Of a stretch of DNA of 64,000 nucleotides, positions 18,617 through 50,982 are shown in pieces. The stretch is taken from contig CATZMX010000001.1 in the NCBI GenBank assembly GCA_958421935.1, positions 8,024-72,023 on the forward strand. The letters are read 5' to 3'. Made by a program: the position numbers and the translations under genes. The notes beneath the pieces are model-generated. The model did no database searches and had not been told where the DNA came from. It saw only the letters and a program-made list of their open reading frames with translations. Every line of letters starts with the position of its first letter. The stretch's first letter is position 1. The stretch comes from an uncultured Erysipelotrichaceae bacterium. GTDB taxonomy: Bacteria > Bacillota_I > Bacilli_A > Erysipelotrichales > Coprobacillaceae.

Positions 18617-20145
<1,529 letters not shown>

Positions 20146-20146
<1 letters not shown>

Positions 20147-32199: not shown

Positions 32200-33357
32200 A
32201 TGAAATACAAAGATGTCTTAAGAAATAGTTTGTATTTAGATGAAGAATTACAAGATTATTTTAATGAAATGTCTAAAAAAGGATGGCGTTTAGATTTCGT
32301 TGGTTATTATTATCGATTTATAAAAGATGAACATGTTTATAAGTATCAAATAGATTACACCCCTATATCTAGTGAATATCAAGATATTTTAAAGGAAATG
32401 GGGTATCACGAAGTAAGGAACTCATTTGATGATTTTAGAGTTTTAGAAAATGAAAATATTGATGCTCCTGATTTAAATACAGAATTTATTTTTGATAAAA
32501 ATAATAAAATGAAACAATTTAAAAAGCTTCGCTATTTTATTTATCCAATTTTAGCGTATTTCCTATTTTGGTTAGGTAAGATTTTTATAAAAGATATTAT
32601 AGAGATAGGTAAACATGTTCTTTATTATGAAGGATTTGGTTCATTGTTGATGGGGATTGTTTTTATTGTTTTATCATTTGTACTCTTATTTGTAACAATT
32701 TTAAATTTTTCTATTTTATATGCATTAAAAAATGATAAAGATTTAAAAAATTTAAAGAAGTTAAACAGTATTAAAGATCATTTAAGTATTCTATTTTATA
32801 TTTTGTTATTAATAAGTGGTGTTTTTTACTTATTAAAATCATTTATAACATTAGATTTAAAAGTCATTGTTTATCTTTTACTTACATGTATTATTGGTGT
32901 GATTTTATCACGTATTATTAAAGATAATAAATATAACAGTATGATTGCTACTTTTGTTGCTATTGCTATTTGTGGACTTATTTTTCCTCAGGTACAAATG
33001 GATGATTCATTATTTGAAAGTAGCACTGTTAAAACAAAAATCACAAATTATGAAAAAGATATAAAAGATACAACATGTACCTATCCACAATTAGATGTCT
33101 TGATTAAAAAAGATAAGTATAAAGATGAAATCTTTAAATACATCATTATCAAAACAGAACATGATACAAGAGATAATCAAAATTTTGAAAAAGCAGTAAA
33201 TACAAAATCTAATGTCTCATGGGACAGTAATAAAACACAATATGTTCATTATGAAAAAGCTATTCAATCTTTTAATAAAAAAGGAAATACATATGACAAT
33301 GGAACATATGTAATCAAAGTATTAAAAAATAGAATTATTACAAGATACAAACAATAA
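32200..33357 (+). CDS. DUF2812-like membrane protein with an extra C-terminal extracytoplasmic domain (paralog 1)
   Basis: N-terminus MKYKDVLRNSLYLDEELQDYFNEMSKKGWRLDFVGYYYRFIKDEHVYKYQIDYTP resembles the PadR-associated DUF2812 domain. It is followed by 4-5 TM segments and a domain of about 120 aa. Confidence 0.5.
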   Translation: MKYKDVLRNSLYLDEELQDYFNEMSKKGWRLDFVGYYYRFIKDEHVYKYQIDYTPISSEYQDILKEMGYHEVRNSFDDFRVLENENIDAPDLNTEFIFDKNNKMKQFKKLRYFIYPILAYFLFWLGKIFIKDIIEIGKHVLYYEGFGSLLMGIVFIVLSFVLLFVTILNFSILYALKNDKDLKNLKKLNSIKDHLSILFYILLLISGVFYLLKSFITLDLKVIVYLLLTCIIGVILSRIIKDNKYNSMIATFVAIAICGLIFPQVQMDDSLFESSTVKTKITNYEKDIKDTTCTYPQLDVLIKKDKYKDEIFKYIIIKTEHDTRDNQNFEKAVNTKSNVSWDSNKTQYVHYEKAIQSFNKKGNTYDNGTYVIKVLKNRIITRYKQ

Positions 33358-33371
33358 GGGAGGATAAGACG

Positions 33372-34547
33372 ATGAAACACAAATATGTTTTAAGAAATAG
33401 TTTGTATTTAGATGAAGAATTACAAGATTATTTTAATGAGATGTCTAAAAAAGGATGGCGTTTAGACTTTATAGGTTATTACTATCGTTTTAGTAAAGAT
33501 GAACATATTTATAAGTATCAAATAGATTACACTCCTGTATCTAGTGAATATCAAGAGCTTTTAAAAGAAATGGGTTATCATGAAGTAGAAAATGCTTTAT
33601 ATGATTTTAGAGTTTTAGAAAATGAAGATGAAGATGCTCCTGATTTAAATACAGAATTTATTTTTGATAAAAATAATAAAATAAAACAATTTAAAAAGAT
33701 TCGCTATTTTATTTATCCAATCTTAGCTTATTTCTTATTTGGTATTGGTAAGTTATTGATGATTGATTTCTTTGAAATTGGTTTTCCAATTGTTTATTAT
33801 GAAGGATTTACTAAATATTTTATCGTATTAATGATTTTTACTGTAGCTATAGGTATTTTGTTGTCATCTATTTTGAATTTGTCAATTTTATATGCTTTAA
33901 AATATGATAAAAGTTTAAGGATATTAAAGAAATTAAATGGTATAAAAGATTATTTGATCTTTGCTATTTCTATTATTTATTTGATAGGTATTATCGTTAC
34001 TTCTTTATTAAGTGCTAATGCTTTTTATATGATGTTTATACCAGTTATTATCATTGGTATATTACAAAAATTAAGTCCTACATTTAATACAAAACAAATG
34101 AGATATCTTTTTATGGCCATTCTTACATTATCTTTGTTTATAAATACGAATCAAAGTAAAAATCAATATGAAACTTTAGAACAAATAGATGATATTTATG
34201 AAAGTGAAACAGTTAAAACAAAAACCAGAGATTATGTTAAAGAATTAAAAGGTCAAGAGATTGTTTATTATGAAAGAAATATCACGATTAAAAAGGATTT
34301 ATATAAAAAAGGAATATTTAAGTTTATTGTTATTCTTACAGATTATGAAACAAGAGAAAATGAGGCTTATATTGATTTTTTAAATGATGATCATACTTAT
34401 CAATTTGATACAAATAAAATACATTATAAAAAATATGATCAAGCTATAAAATCTTTTAAGAAAAAAGGAAATACTTATACAAATAAAGATTACCAAATTG
34501 TATTAACAAAAAATAATATTAAAACAATTTACATAGGATCAAGGTGA
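33372..34547 (+). CDS. DUF2812-like membrane protein (paralog 2, tandem duplicate)
   Basis: The first 120 aa or so are nearly identical to the upstream gene (MKHKYVLRNSLYLDEELQDYFNEMSKKGWRLDFIGYYYRF...). The TM and C-terminal regions have diverged. Confidence 0.5.
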   Translation: MKHKYVLRNSLYLDEELQDYFNEMSKKGWRLDFIGYYYRFSKDEHIYKYQIDYTPVSSEYQELLKEMGYHEVENALYDFRVLENEDEDAPDLNTEFIFDKNNKIKQFKKIRYFIYPILAYFLFGIGKLLMIDFFEIGFPIVYYEGFTKYFIVLMIFTVAIGILLSSILNLSILYALKYDKSLRILKKLNGIKDYLIFAISIIYLIGIIVTSLLSANAFYMMFIPVIIIGILQKLSPTFNTKQMRYLFMAILTLSLFINTNQSKNQYETLEQIDDIYESETVKTKTRDYVKELKGQEIVYYERNITIKKDLYKKGIFKFIVILTDYETRENEAYIDFLNDDHTYQFDTNKIHYKKYDQAIKSFKKKGNTYTNKDYQIVLTKNNIKTIYIGSR

Positions 34548-47196: not shown

Positions 47197-47222
47197 AAAG
47201 CAACTTAACCGTTGCTTTTTTC
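47196..47222. terminator. Bidirectional terminator between dusB and the convergent HAD gene
   Basis: aaagcaac-ttaacc-gttgcttt hairpin with T-runs on both strands. Confidence 0.7.
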
Positions 47223-47874
47223 AATATATTCAATAACTTGATCCAATGAAGATAATAAACAAGCTGTTCTTTCTTTATGTACTTCATCAGGTTCCTTTAA
47301 ATCAGGAATACAAATAACCGGAATATGTGCTTGATAAGCACTATCAATTCCTGCTTCACTATCTTCTAAAACAAGTGCTTCATTTGGTAAAACATCAAGT
47401 TTTTCACAAGCTTTTAAAAAGATATCAGGAGCTGGTTTACCATGTTCAACTTCGAAACCATAAACAATATTATCCATATATTGCATTACTTGATGTTTTT
47501 CTAATAAACTTTGTGCACGTTTTTCTCTACTTGATGTTGCAATAATTGTTTTATAATGATGTTCTTTCAAGTATTTAAGAAGTTCTTTAGCACCAGATTT
47601 TAAATCAACACCATCTTCTTCAATATATTTTGCTTCATATTCATGGAAAACATCAATTGTTTTTTCTATATCATAATTAAGTTGATAGTGATCTTTAATG
47701 TAGTTTAATGATGTAATCAGTTGTTTACCAGGATAATCTTTTATATATTCTTTTAAAGTAAACTCAAAACCATAACTCTTTAATAAATCTCGATAACATT
47801 TATAAGAAATCATTTCACTATCAATTAATAAACCATCCATATCAAAAATAACCGCTTTTATCATAATAAATCCT
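47205..47874 (-). CDS. HAD-superfamily hydrolase (beta-phosphoglucomutase-like subfamily IA)
   Basis: Motif I VIFDMDGLLIDSE. Start moved to MIKAVIF (ATG complement at 47874) after a GGAGGA RBS. Confidence 0.75.
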
Positions 47875-48065
47875 CCATACATTATCATTCTAACAAAATC
47901 ATATATCATATTCTTTCTTTAACAGTTAAAAATAATAAATTATCAAAAAAGTCGCAATAAATCGAAAGCGCTTTGATATTTTTTTTCTAAATGAGAATAA
48001 TGAATACATTGCAAAAAAATGTGAGTTATAGTAAAGGTGTAAAAAAGAAAGAGAGGAATATAGTT

Positions 48066-48371
48066 ATGAAAATTTTATTAGTATGTTGTGCTGGAATGTC
48101 AACAAGTATGCTTGTTCAAAGAATGGATAAAGCAGCAAAGGCAAAAGGTGTTCAAGCAACAATTGATGCTGTGCCAGCAACTCAAGTTCAAAAAGTGATC
48201 AATGATTTTGATATTGTTATGCTTGGCCCTCAAGTAAGAACACAAAAGAAAAATATTGAAGCATTAGCTAATGGTAAACCTGTCGTTCTTATTGATATGA
48301 GAGATTATGGAATGATGAATGGTGAAAAAGTATTAGATTTTGCGATTAAAACTATTGAAGAAGCTAAATAG
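48066..48371 (+). CDS. PTS EIIB component, lactose/cellobiose (type 3) family, stand-alone
   Basis: MKILLVCCAGMSTSMLVQRM with the catalytic Cys. 101 aa. Start at the ATG at 48066 after a GAGAGGAA RBS. Confidence 0.8.
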   Translation: MKILLVCCAGMSTSMLVQRMDKAAKAKGVQATIDAVPATQVQKVINDFDIVMLGPQVRTQKKNIEALANGKPVVLIDMRDYGMMNGEKVLDFAIKTIEEAK

Positions 48372-48388
48372 TAAAAGGAGAGAGAAGT

Positions 48389-48694
48389 ATGAATATTTTA
48401 TTAGTATGTGCAGCAGGAATGTCAACAAGTTTACTTGTGAACAAAATGAATGAAGCAGCAAAAGCAAAAGGATTGTCATTAGAAATCAATGCTTATCCAA
48501 TTGGAAGTATTGATAAACATGCAAGTAATGCAGATGTTATTTTACTTGGTCCTCAAGTAAGATATGAATTAAATAATGTTAAGGGTAAATATCCAGATAA
48601 ACCTGTAGCAGTCATTGATATGCGTGACTATGGAATGATGAATGGTGGAAAAGTATTAGATTTTGCAATCAAATTAGTTGAAGAATCTAAATAA
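48389..48694 (+). CDS. PTS EIIB component, lactose/cellobiose family, second tandem copy
   Basis: MNILLVCAAGMSTSLLVNKM. 101 aa. Confidence 0.8.
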   Translation: MNILLVCAAGMSTSLLVNKMNEAAKAKGLSLEINAYPIGSIDKHASNADVILLGPQVRYELNNVKGKYPDKPVAVIDMRDYGMMNGGKVLDFAIKLVEESK

Positions 48695-50103
48695 TGGATA
48701 ATTATTTAAAAGAGATTTATACATCATTATTTAAAAAATGGATTCTTTTTCATCAATATAAGTATTGTTCTATCAAGGAAGATGAAGAAAATAATATTGT
48801 TATTGAAGGAACAGAAGTTATTGGTCATATTAATTTTTATGATCAAGATATTGTTGAATATGTATTAGTTAATAAAAAGACAAAAGAAAATGAATTTTAT
48901 CTTCATTTCCAATTTCATAGTTTTCAACATGCTATTGAATTGTTTAATGAAATGATGCACTTAGTTAGACAAATCAATAAAACGTCATGTTTAAAAGTAT
49001 TACTTGTTTGTTCCGGAGGACTTACAACAGGATACTTTGCAGCAAAACTCACAGAAGCAGTAGACTTTTTACATCTCAATATGCAAGTAGATGCAAGAGG
49101 TTATCATGAAGTTTATCAAATCGCACAAGATTATGATATGGTTTTATTAGCTCCACAAGTATCTTATTTATACAGTGAAGTTAGAAAAATATTAAAAAAT
49201 CAAGTTGTATTAAAAATACCACCTACTATTTTTGGTAAATATGATGTAAGGGAATGTATTCGTTTAATTGAAAAAAATCAAGAAGAATTAAATAAAGAAC
49301 CTATAAAAAAAGAAGAACCTTTACACATTGCAAATTTAAAAAAGAGTGGCAAGAAAATATTATGTTTATCATTAATTAGAAACAGACATCGTGTTCATAT
49401 TTTATATCGTCTATATGATGAAAATAATGAAATATTAGAAAACAAAATCATTATCAAAAGAAGACTTTATTTACAAGATTATTATGATATTATTGATAGT
49501 ATGTTAGTACATTATCCTGATATTGAAGTTATTGGTTTATCAACACCAGGAATCATTGAAAAAGATAAAATTGTTTCAATAAGTGTTGAAGGTTTAGAAG
49601 AAATAGATATTCAAAGGGATTTTGTATCTAAGTACAAACAAAAATTTATTTTTGAAAATGAAGCAAATGCTGTTGCTGAAGGTTTTTATGCAGTGTCACC
49701 TGAATATGAAAATGTTTCCTTTATTTTTCAACCAATGATTACTTTAAGTGGGGTTGGAAATGTGGTTAATGGAAAATTAGTAAAAGGGGCACATCATATT
49801 TCTGGTGAAGTACAATATTTACCTTTAAATTACTCTAAGGATGTTTTGGAACTTCATAAAACACCAGAAGGGGCATTAGAAGCTTTAAGTAAAACGATTG
49901 CAGCGATTACAAGTATCATCGATCCGCAATGTATTGTTTTCTTTTGTTTCTTGATCATTGATATCGAAGATGTAAAACAAGAAGTAGAAGAATATATTCC
50001 TAAAGAATACCTTCCTGATATTATACAAGTTTATTATTTAGAGGAATATATGTTACTTGGAACATTGATATTATGTATTGAAGAGGTTAATGACAATGAT
50101 TAA
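48694..50103 (+). CDS. Fusion protein: unknown N-terminal domain + EIIB(Lac/Cel)-like domain + degenerate ROK-like (sugar-kinase/repressor fold) domain
   Basis: Residues about 96-195 (LKVLLVCSGGLTTGYFAAKL...MVLLAPQVSYL) form an EIIB type-3 fold with the Cys retained. Residues about 215-400 carry ROK motifs (IGLSTPGII, FENEANAVAEGFY, SGVGNVVNGKLVKGAHHISGEVQYLP), but the N-terminal phosphate-binding GG motif is missing and there is no HTH. Confidence 0.5.
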   Translation: MDNYLKEIYTSLFKKWILFHQYKYCSIKEDEENNIVIEGTEVIGHINFYDQDIVEYVLVNKKTKENEFYLHFQFHSFQHAIELFNEMMHLVRQINKTSCLKVLLVCSGGLTTGYFAAKLTEAVDFLHLNMQVDARGYHEVYQIAQDYDMVLLAPQVSYLYSEVRKILKNQVVLKIPPTIFGKYDVRECIRLIEKNQEELNKEPIKKEEPLHIANLKKSGKKILCLSLIRNRHRVHILYRLYDENNEILENKIIIKRRLYLQDYYDIIDSMLVHYPDIEVIGLSTPGIIEKDKIVSISVEGLEEIDIQRDFVSKYKQKFIFENEANAVAEGFYAVSPEYENVSFIFQPMITLSGVGNVVNGKLVKGAHHISGEVQYLPLNYSKDVLELHKTPEGALEALSKTIAAITSIIDPQCIVFFCFLIIDIEDVKQEVEEYIPKEYLPDIIQVYYLEEYMLLGTLILCIEEVNDND

Positions 50104-50956
50104 TATGTTTACCAAACTTGAAAATATTCAAAATGTGACAGAAAGTGAAAATAAAGTCGTTCAATATATTTTGACACATCCTGATAGTGTGATGACAATG
50201 TCAATCAAGGAACTTTCAGAAGCTTGTTATGTTTCAACATCAGCGATTTATCGTTTATGTGATAAGTTAGATGTCGATGGCTATAATGACTTTAAAATAC
50301 GTTTATCACATTCTTTAACTGAATATACAAAAAGAAAAGGAAACATAGATTATAATTTCCCATTTAAAGAAAACCAAACACAATATCAAGTTTTAAGTTC
50401 ACTCAAAGAAAATTACGAACAAACACTCCTATCAACGTTCGATTTATTTGAAACAGATGAAATACGAAAAGTTGTTTCTAGAATGCAAAAATCAAAAAAT
50501 ATAACCGTATATACATCTGCCAATAATATTTTCTTTGCCCAAAGTTTTAAAATGCAAATGCAGGAAATAGGGGTCCGTGTTGAAGTCCCTGTCGATGAAT
50601 ATGAACAACGTTTGCTAGCAACAACAAGTGGGCCTGATGATCTAGCAATCATTATTTCATATGAAGGTAGGTTAATTAATATTGATCTTATTTCCAATTT
50701 ATTAAAAATAAATAATACAGCGGTACTTTTGATATCATCTAGTGATTATCAAATAAAAAATATAATCCCTAATTATCGTATATTTATGCCATCTTATGAA
50801 CATAAATATGTAAAATTAGCTAATTTCTCTACAAGACTATCATTACTCTATATATTAGATGGATTATATAGTTGTTATTTTGAAACAGATTATAAAAATA
50901 ATTTAGAAAAAAGAATTAAATATGCACAACTATCTGGTGCAAGTAAAAACGAATAG
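50096..50956 (+). CDS. RpiR/MurR-family transcriptional regulator (HTH_6 + SIS domain)
   Basis: HTH region MSIKELSEACYVSTSAIYRLCDKL followed by a SIS domain. ATG at 50096, 9 nt after an AAGAGG RBS. Overlaps the upstream stop by 8 nt. Confidence 0.75.
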   Translation: MINMFTKLENIQNVTESENKVVQYILTHPDSVMTMSIKELSEACYVSTSAIYRLCDKLDVDGYNDFKIRLSHSLTEYTKRKGNIDYNFPFKENQTQYQVLSSLKENYEQTLLSTFDLFETDEIRKVVSRMQKSKNITVYTSANNIFFAQSFKMQMQEIGVRVEVPVDEYEQRLLATTSGPDDLAIIISYEGRLINIDLISNLLKINNTAVLLISSSDYQIKNIIPNYRIFMPSYEHKYVKLANFSTRLSLLYILDGLYSCYFETDYKNNLEKRIKYAQLSGASKNE

Positions 50957-50982
50957 GAGCTTTCGCTCCTATTTTTCATTAT
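50955..50982. terminator. Bidirectional terminator
   Basis: aggagc-tttc-gctcct hairpin flanked by A/T runs. Confidence 0.65.

What the first reader, a model, noticed from the sequence alone, without database searches (positions are those of the whole stretch)
48066..50956. Orphan PTS module: two stand-alone EIIB(Cel) genes, then an EIIB-like plus ROK-like fusion protein, then an RpiR regulator, with no EIIC or EIIA nearby
Two 101-aa EIIB (lactose/cellobiose type, catalytic Cys present) genes sit in tandem. The next ORF is 469 aa: a novel 95-aa N-terminal domain, then a third EIIB-like domain that retains the Cys (LKVLLVCSGG), then a ROK-like domain. The ROK-like part carries IGLSTPGII, ENEANAVAEG and GVGNVVNGKLVKGAHHISGEVQYLP, but lacks the N-terminal ATP-binding glycine motif, the ROK zinc cysteines and any HTH. 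The stop of this ORF overlaps an RpiR/SIS regulator gene. No EIIC, EIIA, HPr or glycoside hydrolase gene is adjacent. Established precedent: the ROK repressor Mlc is regulated by binding the unphosphorylated EIIB domain of PtsG. A covalent EIIB-ROK fusion with a probably inactive kinase fold could be a phosphorylation-state sensor that feeds into the SIS-domain regulator. That would be an uncharacterised regulatory architecture.
Basis: partly seen in the sequence, partly recalled or inferred. Interest (0 to 1): 0.7.

Follow-up and report, generated by a model that had tools for sequence, protein, structure and literature searches.

The report
Sugar-transport relay domain fused to dead kinase
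A four-gene operon in a gut Erysipelotrichales bacterium holds an uncharacterised three-domain protein: a new N-terminal domain, a sugar-transport phosphocarrier (EIIB) domain and a sugar-kinase fold that has lost its ATP site; it probably couples sugar-uptake signals to gene regulation or to a new kind of sugar phosphorylation.

Summary
Window 48066-50956 is one operon. It holds two stand-alone Lac/Cel-type EIIB genes, a 469-aa fusion gene and a translationally coupled RpiR (HTH_6+SIS) gene. No EIIC or EIIA lies anywhere in the 64 kb.

The fusion is not a frameshift. It belongs to a conserved family found only in Erysipelotrichales, with several paralogs per genome. Across 261 distinct full-length sequences:
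- The EIIB Cys106 and a His71 in the new N-terminal domain are invariant.
- The ROK ATP motif DxGxT and the zinc motif are absent in every member.
- The sugar-site residues N322, D/E323 and E372 are kept.

The N-terminal domain is an acidic alpha/beta sandwich and occurs only in this architecture. Rare two-domain forms (N-domain+EIIB, no ROK) also exist.

Across paralog groups the gene sits near RpiR regulators and sugar-phosphate phosphatases more often than expected. Stand-alone EIIB genes are not significantly enriched. The second EIIB is specific to this lineage, and Cel-type PTS parts are scattered in these genomes.

Best reading: a PTS-phosphorylated, sugar-binding signalling protein. 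The main rival is a PTS-driven soluble sugar kinase. The two cannot be separated computationally.

The parts
47205..47864 (-). Divergent HAD-IA phosphatase gene. Its likely start is ATG 47864; the listed ORF extends to 47909.
   Evidence: Pfam HAD_2 at E 1e-37. The orthologs are 219-220 aa and keep the same divergent position in L001, L007, L013, L014, L016 and L033.
47964..47975 (.). Palindrome GAAAGCGCTTTG next to the -35 box; a candidate operator.
   Evidence: It is conserved in five orthologous loci and is the only copy in the window. It is not an exact cre site. Its function was not tested.
47973..48001 (+). Promoter-like site, TTGATA-17-AATAAT.
   Evidence: This is the best-scoring site in the scan and is conserved in the orthologous intergenic regions.
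48066..48371 (+). EIIB-1, a stand-alone Lac/Cel-type PTS phosphocarrier (101 aa, Cys7).
   Evidence: PF02302 at E 2.5e-23 and TIGR00853 at 100 bits. It is 94% identical to the single EIIB of L007/L008.
48389..48694 (+). EIIB-2, a second stand-alone EIIB (101 aa, Cys7), present only in this sub-lineage.
   Evidence: PF02302 at E 7.5e-24. It is 57% identical to EIIB-1. It is absent from the L007/L008 orthologous loci.
48694..48984 (+). Fusion protein, N-terminal domain (residues 1-97). It is a new acidic alpha-beta5-alpha sandwich with an invariant His71 (codon 48904-48906).
48991..49287 (+). Fusion protein, EIIB(Cel)-like domain (residues 100-198), with Cys106 (codon 49009-49011).
   Evidence: PF02302 at 34 bits. 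The family profile matches PDB EIIB-Cel 2l2q at E 3e-12 over residues 102-197. C106, T111, P154 and Q155 are present in 261 of 261 sequences.
49288..49353 (+). Flexible linker (residues 199-220).
   Evidence: Low pLDDT, with residues 201-205 below 50. It is the least conserved segment.
49354..50103 (+). Fusion protein, ROK-fold domain without an ATP site (residues 221-469) plus the stop codon. It carries N322, E323 (codons 49657-49662) and E372.
   Evidence: PF00480 at 43.9 bits. Foldseek's best match is NanK 6jdc, at E 1.5e-14 and TM 0.72. None of 261 sequences has DxGxT or CxCGxxGC.
50090..50956 (+). RpiR-family regulator (HTH_6 + SIS). Its start overlaps the end of the fusion gene by 14 nt.
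   Evidence: Pfam HTH_6 at E 6e-20 and SIS at E 1.3e-8. The overlap is read from the sequence. In L007/L008 the overlap is 4 nt.
50951..50974 (.). Bidirectional terminator-like hairpin that closes the operon.
   Evidence: A 10-pair stem followed by a T-run on both strands.

Best explanation
The operon runs from the promoter near 47973 to the terminator near 50974. It encodes two ordinary Lac/Cel-type EIIB phosphocarriers, one member of an uncharacterised Erysipelotrichales-specific family (N-domain, EIIB domain, ROK fold without an ATP site) and an RpiR phosphosugar regulator.

Proposed mechanism, all steps inferred:
1. The fusion is a cytoplasmic signalling protein with two inputs.
2. The first input is the PTS phosphorylation state, read on Cys106 of its EIIB domain.
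3. The second input is a free sugar bound in the ROK cleft, which cannot use ATP.
4. The acidic N-terminal sandwich, and/or phosphorylation-dependent docking of the EIIB domain, passes the result on by protein-protein contact.
5. In this locus the most likely partner is the co-translated RpiR regulator, which itself senses a sugar phosphate.
6. The likely targets are the operon itself and the divergent HAD phosphatase gene.

Shown by tools: the architecture, the conservation pattern, the loss of the ATP and zinc motifs, and the enrichment of RpiR and phosphatase genes nearby. Inferred: phosphorylation, ligand binding, the partner and the output.
For: - There is no catalytic route from ATP. None of 261 sequences has DxGxT or the GG adenosine motif. 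An altered DxGxT is typical of ROK regulators rather than kinases (PMC3553997).
- The EIIB domain is full length, with invariant Cys106, T111 and P154-Q155. These genomes encode EIIA(Cel).
- The N-domain has a fold found in protein-binding modules, namely type III secretion chaperones and immunity proteins. It is acidic, with a mean net charge of -5.6, so it is not a DNA binder.
- RpiR-family genes lie within two genes of the fusion in 11 of 34 paralog groups, in several orientations (odds ratio 4.8, p 4e-4).
- Translational coupling with RpiR is seen here and in the orthologs.
- Two-domain N-domain+EIIB proteins without ROK exist. Two of them sit beside RpiR-like genes. So the N-domain+EIIB pair can function without any kinase fold.
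- Many paralogs lie in contexts unrelated to sugar catabolism, for example nadA/nadBC and a BrxF-like gene. This fits a regulator better than a catabolic enzyme.
- Precedents for EIIB-dependent control of regulators are the Mlc/EIIB complex 3bp8 and MtlR (PMC6148471).
Against: - The protein has no recognisable output domain, and about two thirds of the paralog groups have no regulator next to them.
- The sugar-site and catalytic residues N322, D323 (Asp in 85% of sequences) and E372 are nearly invariant across paralogs only 35-40% identical. In ROK regulators these positions vary most between groups. Such conservation looks more like an enzyme family.
- No interaction with RpiR has been shown or modelled.
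- The coevolution analysis was too weak to place the domains.
Confidence: 0.4

Rival explanations
1. The fusion is a PTS-driven soluble sugar kinase. Phosphoryl groups from PEP reach Cys106 of the EIIB domain. They arrive through EIIA(Cel), or through His71 of the N-domain acting as a new EIIA-like relay. They are then passed directly to a sugar held in the ROK cleft. The ROK domain would replace the membrane EIIC, and no ATP would be needed.
For: - The ATP motifs are lost everywhere, yet the catalytic-loop Asn-Asp, the ExG-motif Glu and the PG loop are nearly invariant across all paralogs.
- Cys106 and His71 are invariant in 261 of 261 sequences.
- The gene often stands alone, as housekeeping kinases do.
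- Linkage to RpiR fits a kinase that makes the phosphosugar inducer. NCBIfam has a model for an RpiR-glucokinase fusion protein (NF010701, listed).
- The L050/L053 loci have EIIB, the fusion and an EIIC but no EIIA.
- There are weak coevolution signals between the N-domain sheet face (Y49, Y69) and the EIIB P-loop (2.4-fold, p 0.03, post hoc). There are also single couplings between the EIIB active-site loops and ROK residues 389-397.
Against: - The N-domain resembles no known EIIA or HPr fold.
- Residue 323 is Glu in the window protein and Asn in 14 of 261 members.
- Two-domain forms without ROK exist.
- Frequent neighbouring sugar-phosphate phosphatases would create a futile cycle.
- There is no enrichment of glycoside hydrolases or sugar importers nearby.
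- The coevolution between the EIIB site and the ROK site is not significant (p 0.13).
- No soluble EIIB-to-sugar transfer is known.
Confidence: 0.3
2. The fusion is an ordinary ATP-dependent ROK sugar kinase (BglK, NagK or NanK type). It happens to be fused to an EIIB domain and belongs to a normal cellobiose PTS operon whose EIIC and EIIA lie elsewhere.
For: - The ROK Pfam hit is above threshold, and the best structural matches are kinases.
- Zinc-less ROK kinases exist, for example FnNanK (PMC5458393).
- Cel-type PTS genes are scattered in these genomes.
Against: - DxGxT is absent in 261 of 261 sequences; S/A-hydrophobic-hydrophobic-R-N stands in its place.
- The adenosine GG motif is replaced by bulky residues.
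- FnNanK, the zinc-less precedent, keeps DxGxT.
- NCBIfam kinase models score far below their cutoffs.
Confidence: 0.05
3. The fusion is itself a DNA-binding transcription factor. It would be a ROK repressor in which the N-domain replaces the winged helix.
For: - The domain order mimics that of ROK repressors: an N-terminal module followed by the ROK sensor.
- DxGxT is lost, as in ROK regulators.
Against: - The N-domain is acidic, with 10 K+R against 15 D+E in the window protein and a family mean net charge of -5.6.
- It has no HTH, and its fold matches chaperone, immunity and frataxin-type sandwiches.
- There is no Pfam DNA-binding hit.
Confidence: 0.04
4. The fusion is an artefact: a sequencing frameshift or a decaying pseudogene that joins separate EIIB and ROK genes.
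For: None found.
Against: - The identical protein cluster has 96 member sequences on several contigs. Nearly all of the 120 listed homologs are 455-500 aa.
- The genome scan found 307 stretches.
- The AF2 model is confident, with pLDDT 86.8 and pTM 0.78.
- All three domains are under strong purifying conservation.
Confidence: 0.01

Closest known systems
Mlc (ROK repressor) sequestered by dephospho-EIIB(Glc) of PtsG (PDB 3bp8; PMC13482132)
   Same: A ROK-fold protein whose activity depends on the phosphorylation state of a PTS EIIB domain. The ROK domain is not a kinase.
   Different: - Mlc has an N-terminal wHTH and a zinc site.
- Its EIIB partner is a separate membrane-tethered protein of the Glc family (PF00367), which is a different fold from the Cel-type EIIB here (PF02302).
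- In the window protein the EIIB is covalently fused, there is no HTH and there is no zinc motif.
PRD-type activators with EIIB-like and EIIA-like domains (MtlR, LicR/CelR; PMC6148471). One example was found here at L021:2027-3730.
   Same: Cytoplasmic regulators that carry a phosphorylatable EIIB-like domain read by the PTS.
   Different: - They have HTH and PRD domains and an EIIB(Gat)-like module.
- The window protein has none of these.
- It has a ROK fold and a new N-terminal domain instead.
ClaR, an RpiR-family activator of the split cellobiose/lactose PTS genes of Lactococcus lactis (PMC4286628)
   Same: An RpiR regulator that controls Cel-type EIIB/EIIA genes lying apart from their EIIC. 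The inducer is a PTS-made sugar phosphate.
   Different: No EIIB-ROK partner protein is involved, and ClaR is not translationally coupled to a PTS-domain protein.
ROK sugar kinases without a zinc site (NanK of F. nucleatum, H. influenzae and P. multocida; PDB 5nck, 6jdc, 6jdh)
   Same: These are the best sequence and structure matches to residues 221-469. They lack the CxCGxxGC loop and keep the Asn-Asp loop and the Glu of ExGH.
   Different: They keep DxGxT and use ATP. They are single-domain enzymes.
PTS-dependent dihydroxyacetone kinase DhaK/DhaL/DhaM (own knowledge; mentioned in PMC6643234)
   Same: A precedent for a soluble kinase that draws its phosphoryl group from the PTS instead of from free ATP.
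   Different: It is unrelated in fold, uses an EIIA(Man)-like DhaM and a bound ADP cofactor, and involves no EIIB or ROK domain. It is an analogy for the rival mechanism only.
MecR2, a ROK-fold anti-repressor of S. aureus (PDB 4ija)
   Same: A ROK scaffold that acts through protein-protein contact rather than catalysis. It appears among the structural matches.
   Different: It keeps an N-terminal DNA-binding-like domain and has no PTS domain.

Membership tests
PTS EIIB, lactose/cellobiose family (PF02302): stand-alone EIIB-1 and EIIB-2 | Profile match above the curated cutoff over the full domain. | tested here: met
   83 and 84.6 bits against a cutoff of 23.6, covering profile positions 1-89 of 90.
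PTS EIIB, lactose/cellobiose family (PF02302): stand-alone EIIB-1 and EIIB-2 | N-terminal active-site Cys in a C-x-x-G-M-S-T-S loop. | tested here: met
   The sequences read MKILLVCCAGMSTS and MNILLVCAAGMSTS.
PTS EIIB, lactose/cellobiose family (PF02302): stand-alone EIIB-1 and EIIB-2 | Phosphotransfer from EIIA(Cel) to a cognate EIIC-bound sugar. | not testable with these tools
   There is no EIIA or EIIC in the window. EIIA(Cel) and Cel-type EIIC genes do exist in related loci.
PTS EIIB, lactose/cellobiose family: the domain inside the fusion | Profile match above the cutoff and a complete domain. | tested here: met
   PF02302 scores 34.2 bits against a cutoff of 23.6. The family profile aligns to residues 5-102 of PDB 2l2q at E 2.8e-12.
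PTS EIIB, lactose/cellobiose family: the domain inside the fusion | Conserved phospho-acceptor Cys. | tested here: met
   Cys106 is present in 261 of 261 sequences, as are T111, P154 and Q155.
ROK family (PF00480) | Profile match above the cutoff and the two-lobed ASKHA/ROK fold. | tested here: met
   43.9 bits against a cutoff of 22.9, but covering only profile positions 15-157 of 294. Foldseek matches NanK 6jdc at E 1.5e-14 and TM 0.72.
ROK family (PF00480) | N-terminal nucleotide-binding motif DxGxT, which marks the kinases. | tested here: not met
   None of 261 sequences has it. The window protein reads L-S-L-I-R-N at residues 225-230.
ROK family (PF00480) | Strictly conserved catalytic Asp after an Asn. 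| tested here: inconclusive
   N322 is present in 256 of 261 sequences. Position 323 is Asp in 222, Glu in 19 (including the window protein) and Asn in 14.
ROK family (PF00480) | ExGH sugar-binding motif. | tested here: not met
   E372 is kept in 254 of 261 sequences, but the motif reads E-V-Q-Y. Tyr or Phe stands at the His position. L. monocytogenes NanK also has Tyr at that position.
ROK family (PF00480) | Zinc motif CxCGxxGCx(E/D). | tested here: not met
   None of 261 sequences has it.
ROK repressors (Mlc, NagC, XylR type) | N-terminal winged-helix DNA-binding domain. | tested here: not met
   There is no HTH hit. The N-domain is an acidic alpha/beta sandwich.
RpiR family regulator (gene 50090-50956) | N-terminal HTH_6 plus a C-terminal SIS phosphosugar-binding domain. 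| tested here: met
   HTH_6 scores 71.4 bits and SIS 35.2 bits, both above their cutoffs.
PRD-containing PTS regulators (MtlR, LicR) | PRD domains and an HTH. | tested here: not met
   No PRD or HTH hit in the fusion. A true member of that family was recognised at L021:2027-3730.
PTS EIIA or HPr (tested for the N-domain) | Fold or sequence similarity to a known EIIA class or to HPr. | tested here: not met

The most novel reading that the evidence does not exclude
The protein is a self-contained, soluble 'Enzyme II'.
- The new N-terminal domain would be an unrecognised class of EIIA-like phosphohistidine relay, using the invariant His71.
- It would load Cys106 of the fused EIIB domain.
- EIIB~P would then phosphorylate a cytoplasmic sugar held in the ATP-site-less ROK cleft.

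This would be a PEP-dependent intracellular sugar kinase in which a ROK fold replaces the membrane EIIC. The stand-alone EIIBs and the two-domain N-domain+EIIB forms would be further acceptors of the same relay.
Probability: 0.2. Interest if true: 0.85.

Novelty: new variant of a known kind. Interest (0 to 1): 0.62.

Why it matters
The PTS is the central sugar-sensing device of Firmicutes. Its known regulatory outputs are PRD regulators, the HPr/CcpA pathway and EIIB sequestration of Mlc or MtlR.

A conserved family with several paralogs per genome joins a phosphorylatable EIIB domain to a sugar-binding ROK fold without an ATP site and to a private N-terminal domain. That family would add a new output branch. 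Alternatively, it would be the first soluble EIIB-to-sugar phosphotransferase.

The family is confined to Erysipelotrichales such as Coprobacillus, Thomasclavelia, Faecalibacillus, Catenibacterium and Massilimicrobiota, most of them recovered here from gut and faecal samples. Carbohydrate regulation in this order is, to my knowledge, little studied.

Both hypotheses can be tested directly with purified proteins. Cultured members are available, for example Faecalibacillus, Longibaculum muris and Massilimicrobiota timonensis.

Tried and rejected
- **Frameshift or two genes:** rejected. Nearly all of the 120 listed homologs are full length, and the genome scan found 307 stretches.
- **Leader RNA element upstream of EIIB-1:** Rfam found nothing.
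- **The conserved palindrome as a cre site:** there is no exact cre consensus match anywhere in the window. It stays an untested candidate operator.
- **Specificity-determining positions by domain:** this was meant to show whether the paralogs diverge in the sugar pocket or in the N-domain. The signal was spread evenly and was uninformative.
- **Mean-field DCA on 261 sequences (Meff 164) to recover the domain packing:**
  - Intradomain contacts looked sensible.
  - Interdomain signals were weak.
  - N-domain face against the EIIB site gave p 0.03, post hoc.
  - EIIB site against the ROK site gave p 0.13.
  - The analysis is not decisive.
- **AlphaFold-database fold search of the full model:** the library was unavailable. 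Model coordinates and PAE are not exposed, so the distances from Cys106 to the pocket and from His71 to Cys106 could not be measured.
- **A homolog in the window of the BrxF-like P-loop gene that follows one paralog group:** none found.
- **Literature searches for an EIIB-ROK fusion or for this family:** nothing relevant found.


Full report
**What is there.** The window has about 28% GC. Its genes are those of an origin-proximal firmicute region.

Positions 48066-50956 hold four co-oriented genes:
- EIIB-1 at 48066-48371. This start is preferred over the ATG at 47991, because an RBS precedes 48066 and the orthologs are 101 aa.
- EIIB-2 at 48389-48694.
- A 469-aa gene at 48694-50103.
- An RpiR gene ending at 50956. 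Its likely start is ATG 50090 behind GAAGAGG, which overlaps the preceding stop by 14 nt.

A promoter-like site, TTGATA-17-AATAAT, lies at 47973-48001. A bidirectional hairpin terminator lies at 50951-50974. Together they bracket the unit.

The 201-bp region shared with a divergent HAD-IA phosphatase gene is conserved in five orthologous loci. It includes the palindrome GAAAGCGCTTTG next to the -35 box. That palindrome is not an exact cre site, and no Rfam family matches the leader.

**Check of the observation.** Pfam and NCBIfam confirm the domain calls:
- Two canonical Lac/Cel EIIBs, at E about 1e-23.
- In the 469-aa protein, PF02302 over residues 101-168 and ROK PF00480 over residues 240-375, both above their gathering cutoffs.
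- HTH_6 plus SIS in the last gene.

The two EIIBs are 57% identical to each other and 24-27% identical to the internal EIIB domain.

I found no EIIC, EIIA or HPr in the 64 kb. A lone GH1 gene sits at 18674-20146.

**The fusion is a real, conserved family.**
- A protein search returned 194 homologs. Nearly all of the 120 listed are 455-500 aa, they reach down to about 40% identity, and 116 carry both Pfam domains. The sources name them only 'ROK family protein' or 'PTS IIB'.
- A scan of species-representative genomes found 307 stretches, almost all titled as Erysipelotrichales genera or unnamed MAGs. Named genera include Stoquefichus, Thomasclavelia, Coprobacillus, Longibaculum, Massilimicrobiota, Faecalibacillus, Catenibacterium, Eggerthia and Sharpea. 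A few MAGs are labelled Hungatella, Clostridiaceae or Bacteroidaceae.
- There are several paralogs per genome. At least four occur in the assembly whose ortholog is 96% identical to the window's (L013, L040, L050, L083). At least three occur in Faecalibacillus faecis.

**Anatomy.** AlphaFold2 gives a confident three-domain model, with pLDDT 86.8 and pTM 0.78.

*Residues 1-97, the N-domain.*
- It is an alpha-beta5-alpha sandwich, with pLDDT 90 when modelled alone.
- It is acidic.
- A profile search of 1.84 billion representative proteins found it only at the N-terminus of this family, in 329 clusters.
- His71 lies in the motif FYLHFQ. By the in/out pattern of strand 5 it sits on the open face of the sheet. 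It is invariant in 261 of 261 sequences.

*Residues 100-198, the EIIB domain.*
- It is a complete EIIB(Cel) domain and aligns to PDB 2l2q, 1h9c and 2wy2.
- C106, T111, P154 and Q155 are invariant.

*Residues 199-220* form a poorly conserved, low-confidence linker.

*Residues 221-469, the ROK domain.*
- It is a full ROK fold. The best match is zinc-less NanK 6jdc, at TM 0.72.
- The four ROK signatures are listed in PMC5458393. DxGxT is absent in all 261 sequences and the zinc motif is absent in all 261.
- ExGH reads ExQY.
- The Asn-Asp loop is kept, although the window protein has Glu323 and 14 members have Asn.
- The C-terminal GG adenosine motif is replaced by bulky residues.
- An altered DxGxT is typical of ROK regulators (PMC3553997). 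In those regulators, however, the sugar-contact residues vary between groups, whereas here they are nearly invariant.

**Genomic context across the family.** I called ORFs in 97 loci, clustered the neighbouring genes and named the clusters with Pfam.

The window's arrangement (HAD gene divergent, then EIIB, fusion, RpiR) is shared only with its close orthologs. The 82%-identical ones carry a single EIIB, the ortholog of EIIB-1.

Other paralog groups have quite different neighbours:
- a BrxF-like 142-aa P-loop gene;
- a cupin gene upstream and nadA-nadBC downstream;
- an MBL-fold hydrolase, an MFS transporter and an M24 peptidase;
- EIIB, fusion and a PHP phosphatase, with a divergent RpiR and, 5.6 kb further on, an RpiR-EIIC(Cel) pair (L050/L053).

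I compared genes within two positions of the fusion with genes four or more positions away in the same loci:

| Neighbour | Groups at 60% identity | Odds ratio | p |
|---|---|---|---|
| RpiR-family regulators, including a divergent clade recognised by hhalign | 11 of 34 | 4.8 | 4e-4 |
| Sugar-phosphate-type phosphatases (HAD-IA, Cof, PHP) | 12 of 34 | 7.3 | 2e-4 |
| Stand-alone EIIB | 4 of 34 | 2.1 | 0.23 |
| GH1 | 3 of 34 | 0.8 | 0.74 |

Canonical cel operons with EIIA(Cel) do exist in these taxa (L021, L030). So a phosphoryl donor for Cel-type EIIB domains is available.

Two-domain N-domain+EIIB proteins of 194-209 aa, without ROK, form a small sister group:
- One is a complete gene in the interior of a contig.
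- Another is preceded by a stand-alone EIIB.
- Two sit beside RpiR-like genes.

**Mechanism.**

Firm points:
- The protein cannot be a standard ATP-dependent ROK kinase.
- It is not a DNA binder.
- Its EIIB domain has everything needed to accept a phosphoryl group.
- A sugar-type pocket is preserved.

My preferred reading (confidence 0.4) is a PTS-coupled sugar sensor. It would integrate the Cys106 phosphorylation state with sugar occupancy and act by protein contact. In this locus the partner would be the translationally coupled RpiR regulator. This fits the altered ATP motif, the protein-binding fold of the N-domain, the ROK-less variants next to RpiR-like genes, and the contexts unrelated to catabolism.

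The main rival (confidence 0.3) is a PTS-driven soluble kinase, in which EIIB~P phosphorylates the sugar in the ROK cleft and His71 possibly acts as an EIIA-like relay. This fits the enzyme-like invariance of N322, D323 and E372, the two invariant phospho-acceptor-type residues, and the frequent stand-alone position of the gene.

A DCA analysis on 261 sequences hinted at two things. The His71 face of the N-domain may contact the EIIB P-loop. The EIIB loops may contact ROK residues 389-397. The statistics are weak, so I do not rely on either hint.

**Comparison and novelty.**
- Split Cel-type PTS genes under an RpiR regulator are known (ClaR; PMC4286628).
- EIIB-dependent control of regulators is known: the Mlc/EIIB complex 3bp8, and MtlR with its EIIB-like domain (PMC6148471).
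- A covalent EIIB(Cel)-ROK protein with a private N-terminal domain was not found in the literature searched. It is not captured by any curated model that reaches its own cutoff.
- I rate it a new variant of a known kind, with interest 0.62. If the soluble Enzyme II reading were true, it would be categorically new.

Noticed in passing
L003:11471-11899, L005:11511-11939, L011:11530-11958 (and 15 more loci): A 142-aa P-loop gene (GxPGSGKSK) directly follows one paralog group of the fusion gene. PADLOC calls it BrxF-like (E 3.5e-21), but no BREX genes are nearby. There is no homolog in the window.
   Followed up: partly
L018:3483-4085; L074:5877-6464 (-); L095:6001-6612; L096:6001-6603: Two-domain proteins (N-domain + EIIB, 195-203 aa) without the ROK part. 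The His and Cys are conserved. Two lie beside RpiR-like genes, and one lies behind a stand-alone EIIB.
   Followed up: partly
L050:230-8865 and L053:8001-16632: This paralogous locus, in what appears to be the same organism as the window, reads: EIIB, fusion, PHP phosphatase, RpiR (-), PHP phosphatase, FAD protein, RpiR (-), MgsA_C-like gene, EIIC(Cel). It has an EIIB and an EIIC but no EIIA.
   Followed up: partly
window 18674-20146: A lone GH1 (6-phospho-beta-glucosidase type) gene with no PTS or regulator gene next to it. This suggests that PTS-imported beta-glucosides are used and that the PTS genes are dispersed.
   Followed up: no
window 47964-47975: The palindrome GAAAGCGCTTTG next to the -35 box of the operon promoter. 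It is conserved in the orthologs and is the only copy in the window. It is cre-like but not a consensus match.
   Followed up: partly
window 32200-33357 and 33372-34547: Tandem paralogous genes (385 and 391 aa, 51% identical, E 9e-131). They have nearly identical N-terminal 120 residues and a hydrophobic middle. Their function was not examined.
   Followed up: no
L013 (CAVESC010000001.1): The public assembly that carries the 96%-identical ortholog of this locus is titled 'Bacteroidaceae bacterium'. The locus is clearly of a low-GC Erysipelotrichales type, so the label or the bin is probably wrong.
   Followed up: no
L009:15784-20037: Another cluster without an EIIC in a relative: a 114-aa gene with no Pfam hit, a stand-alone EIIB, a GH1 gene and two RpiR genes in a row.
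   Followed up: no
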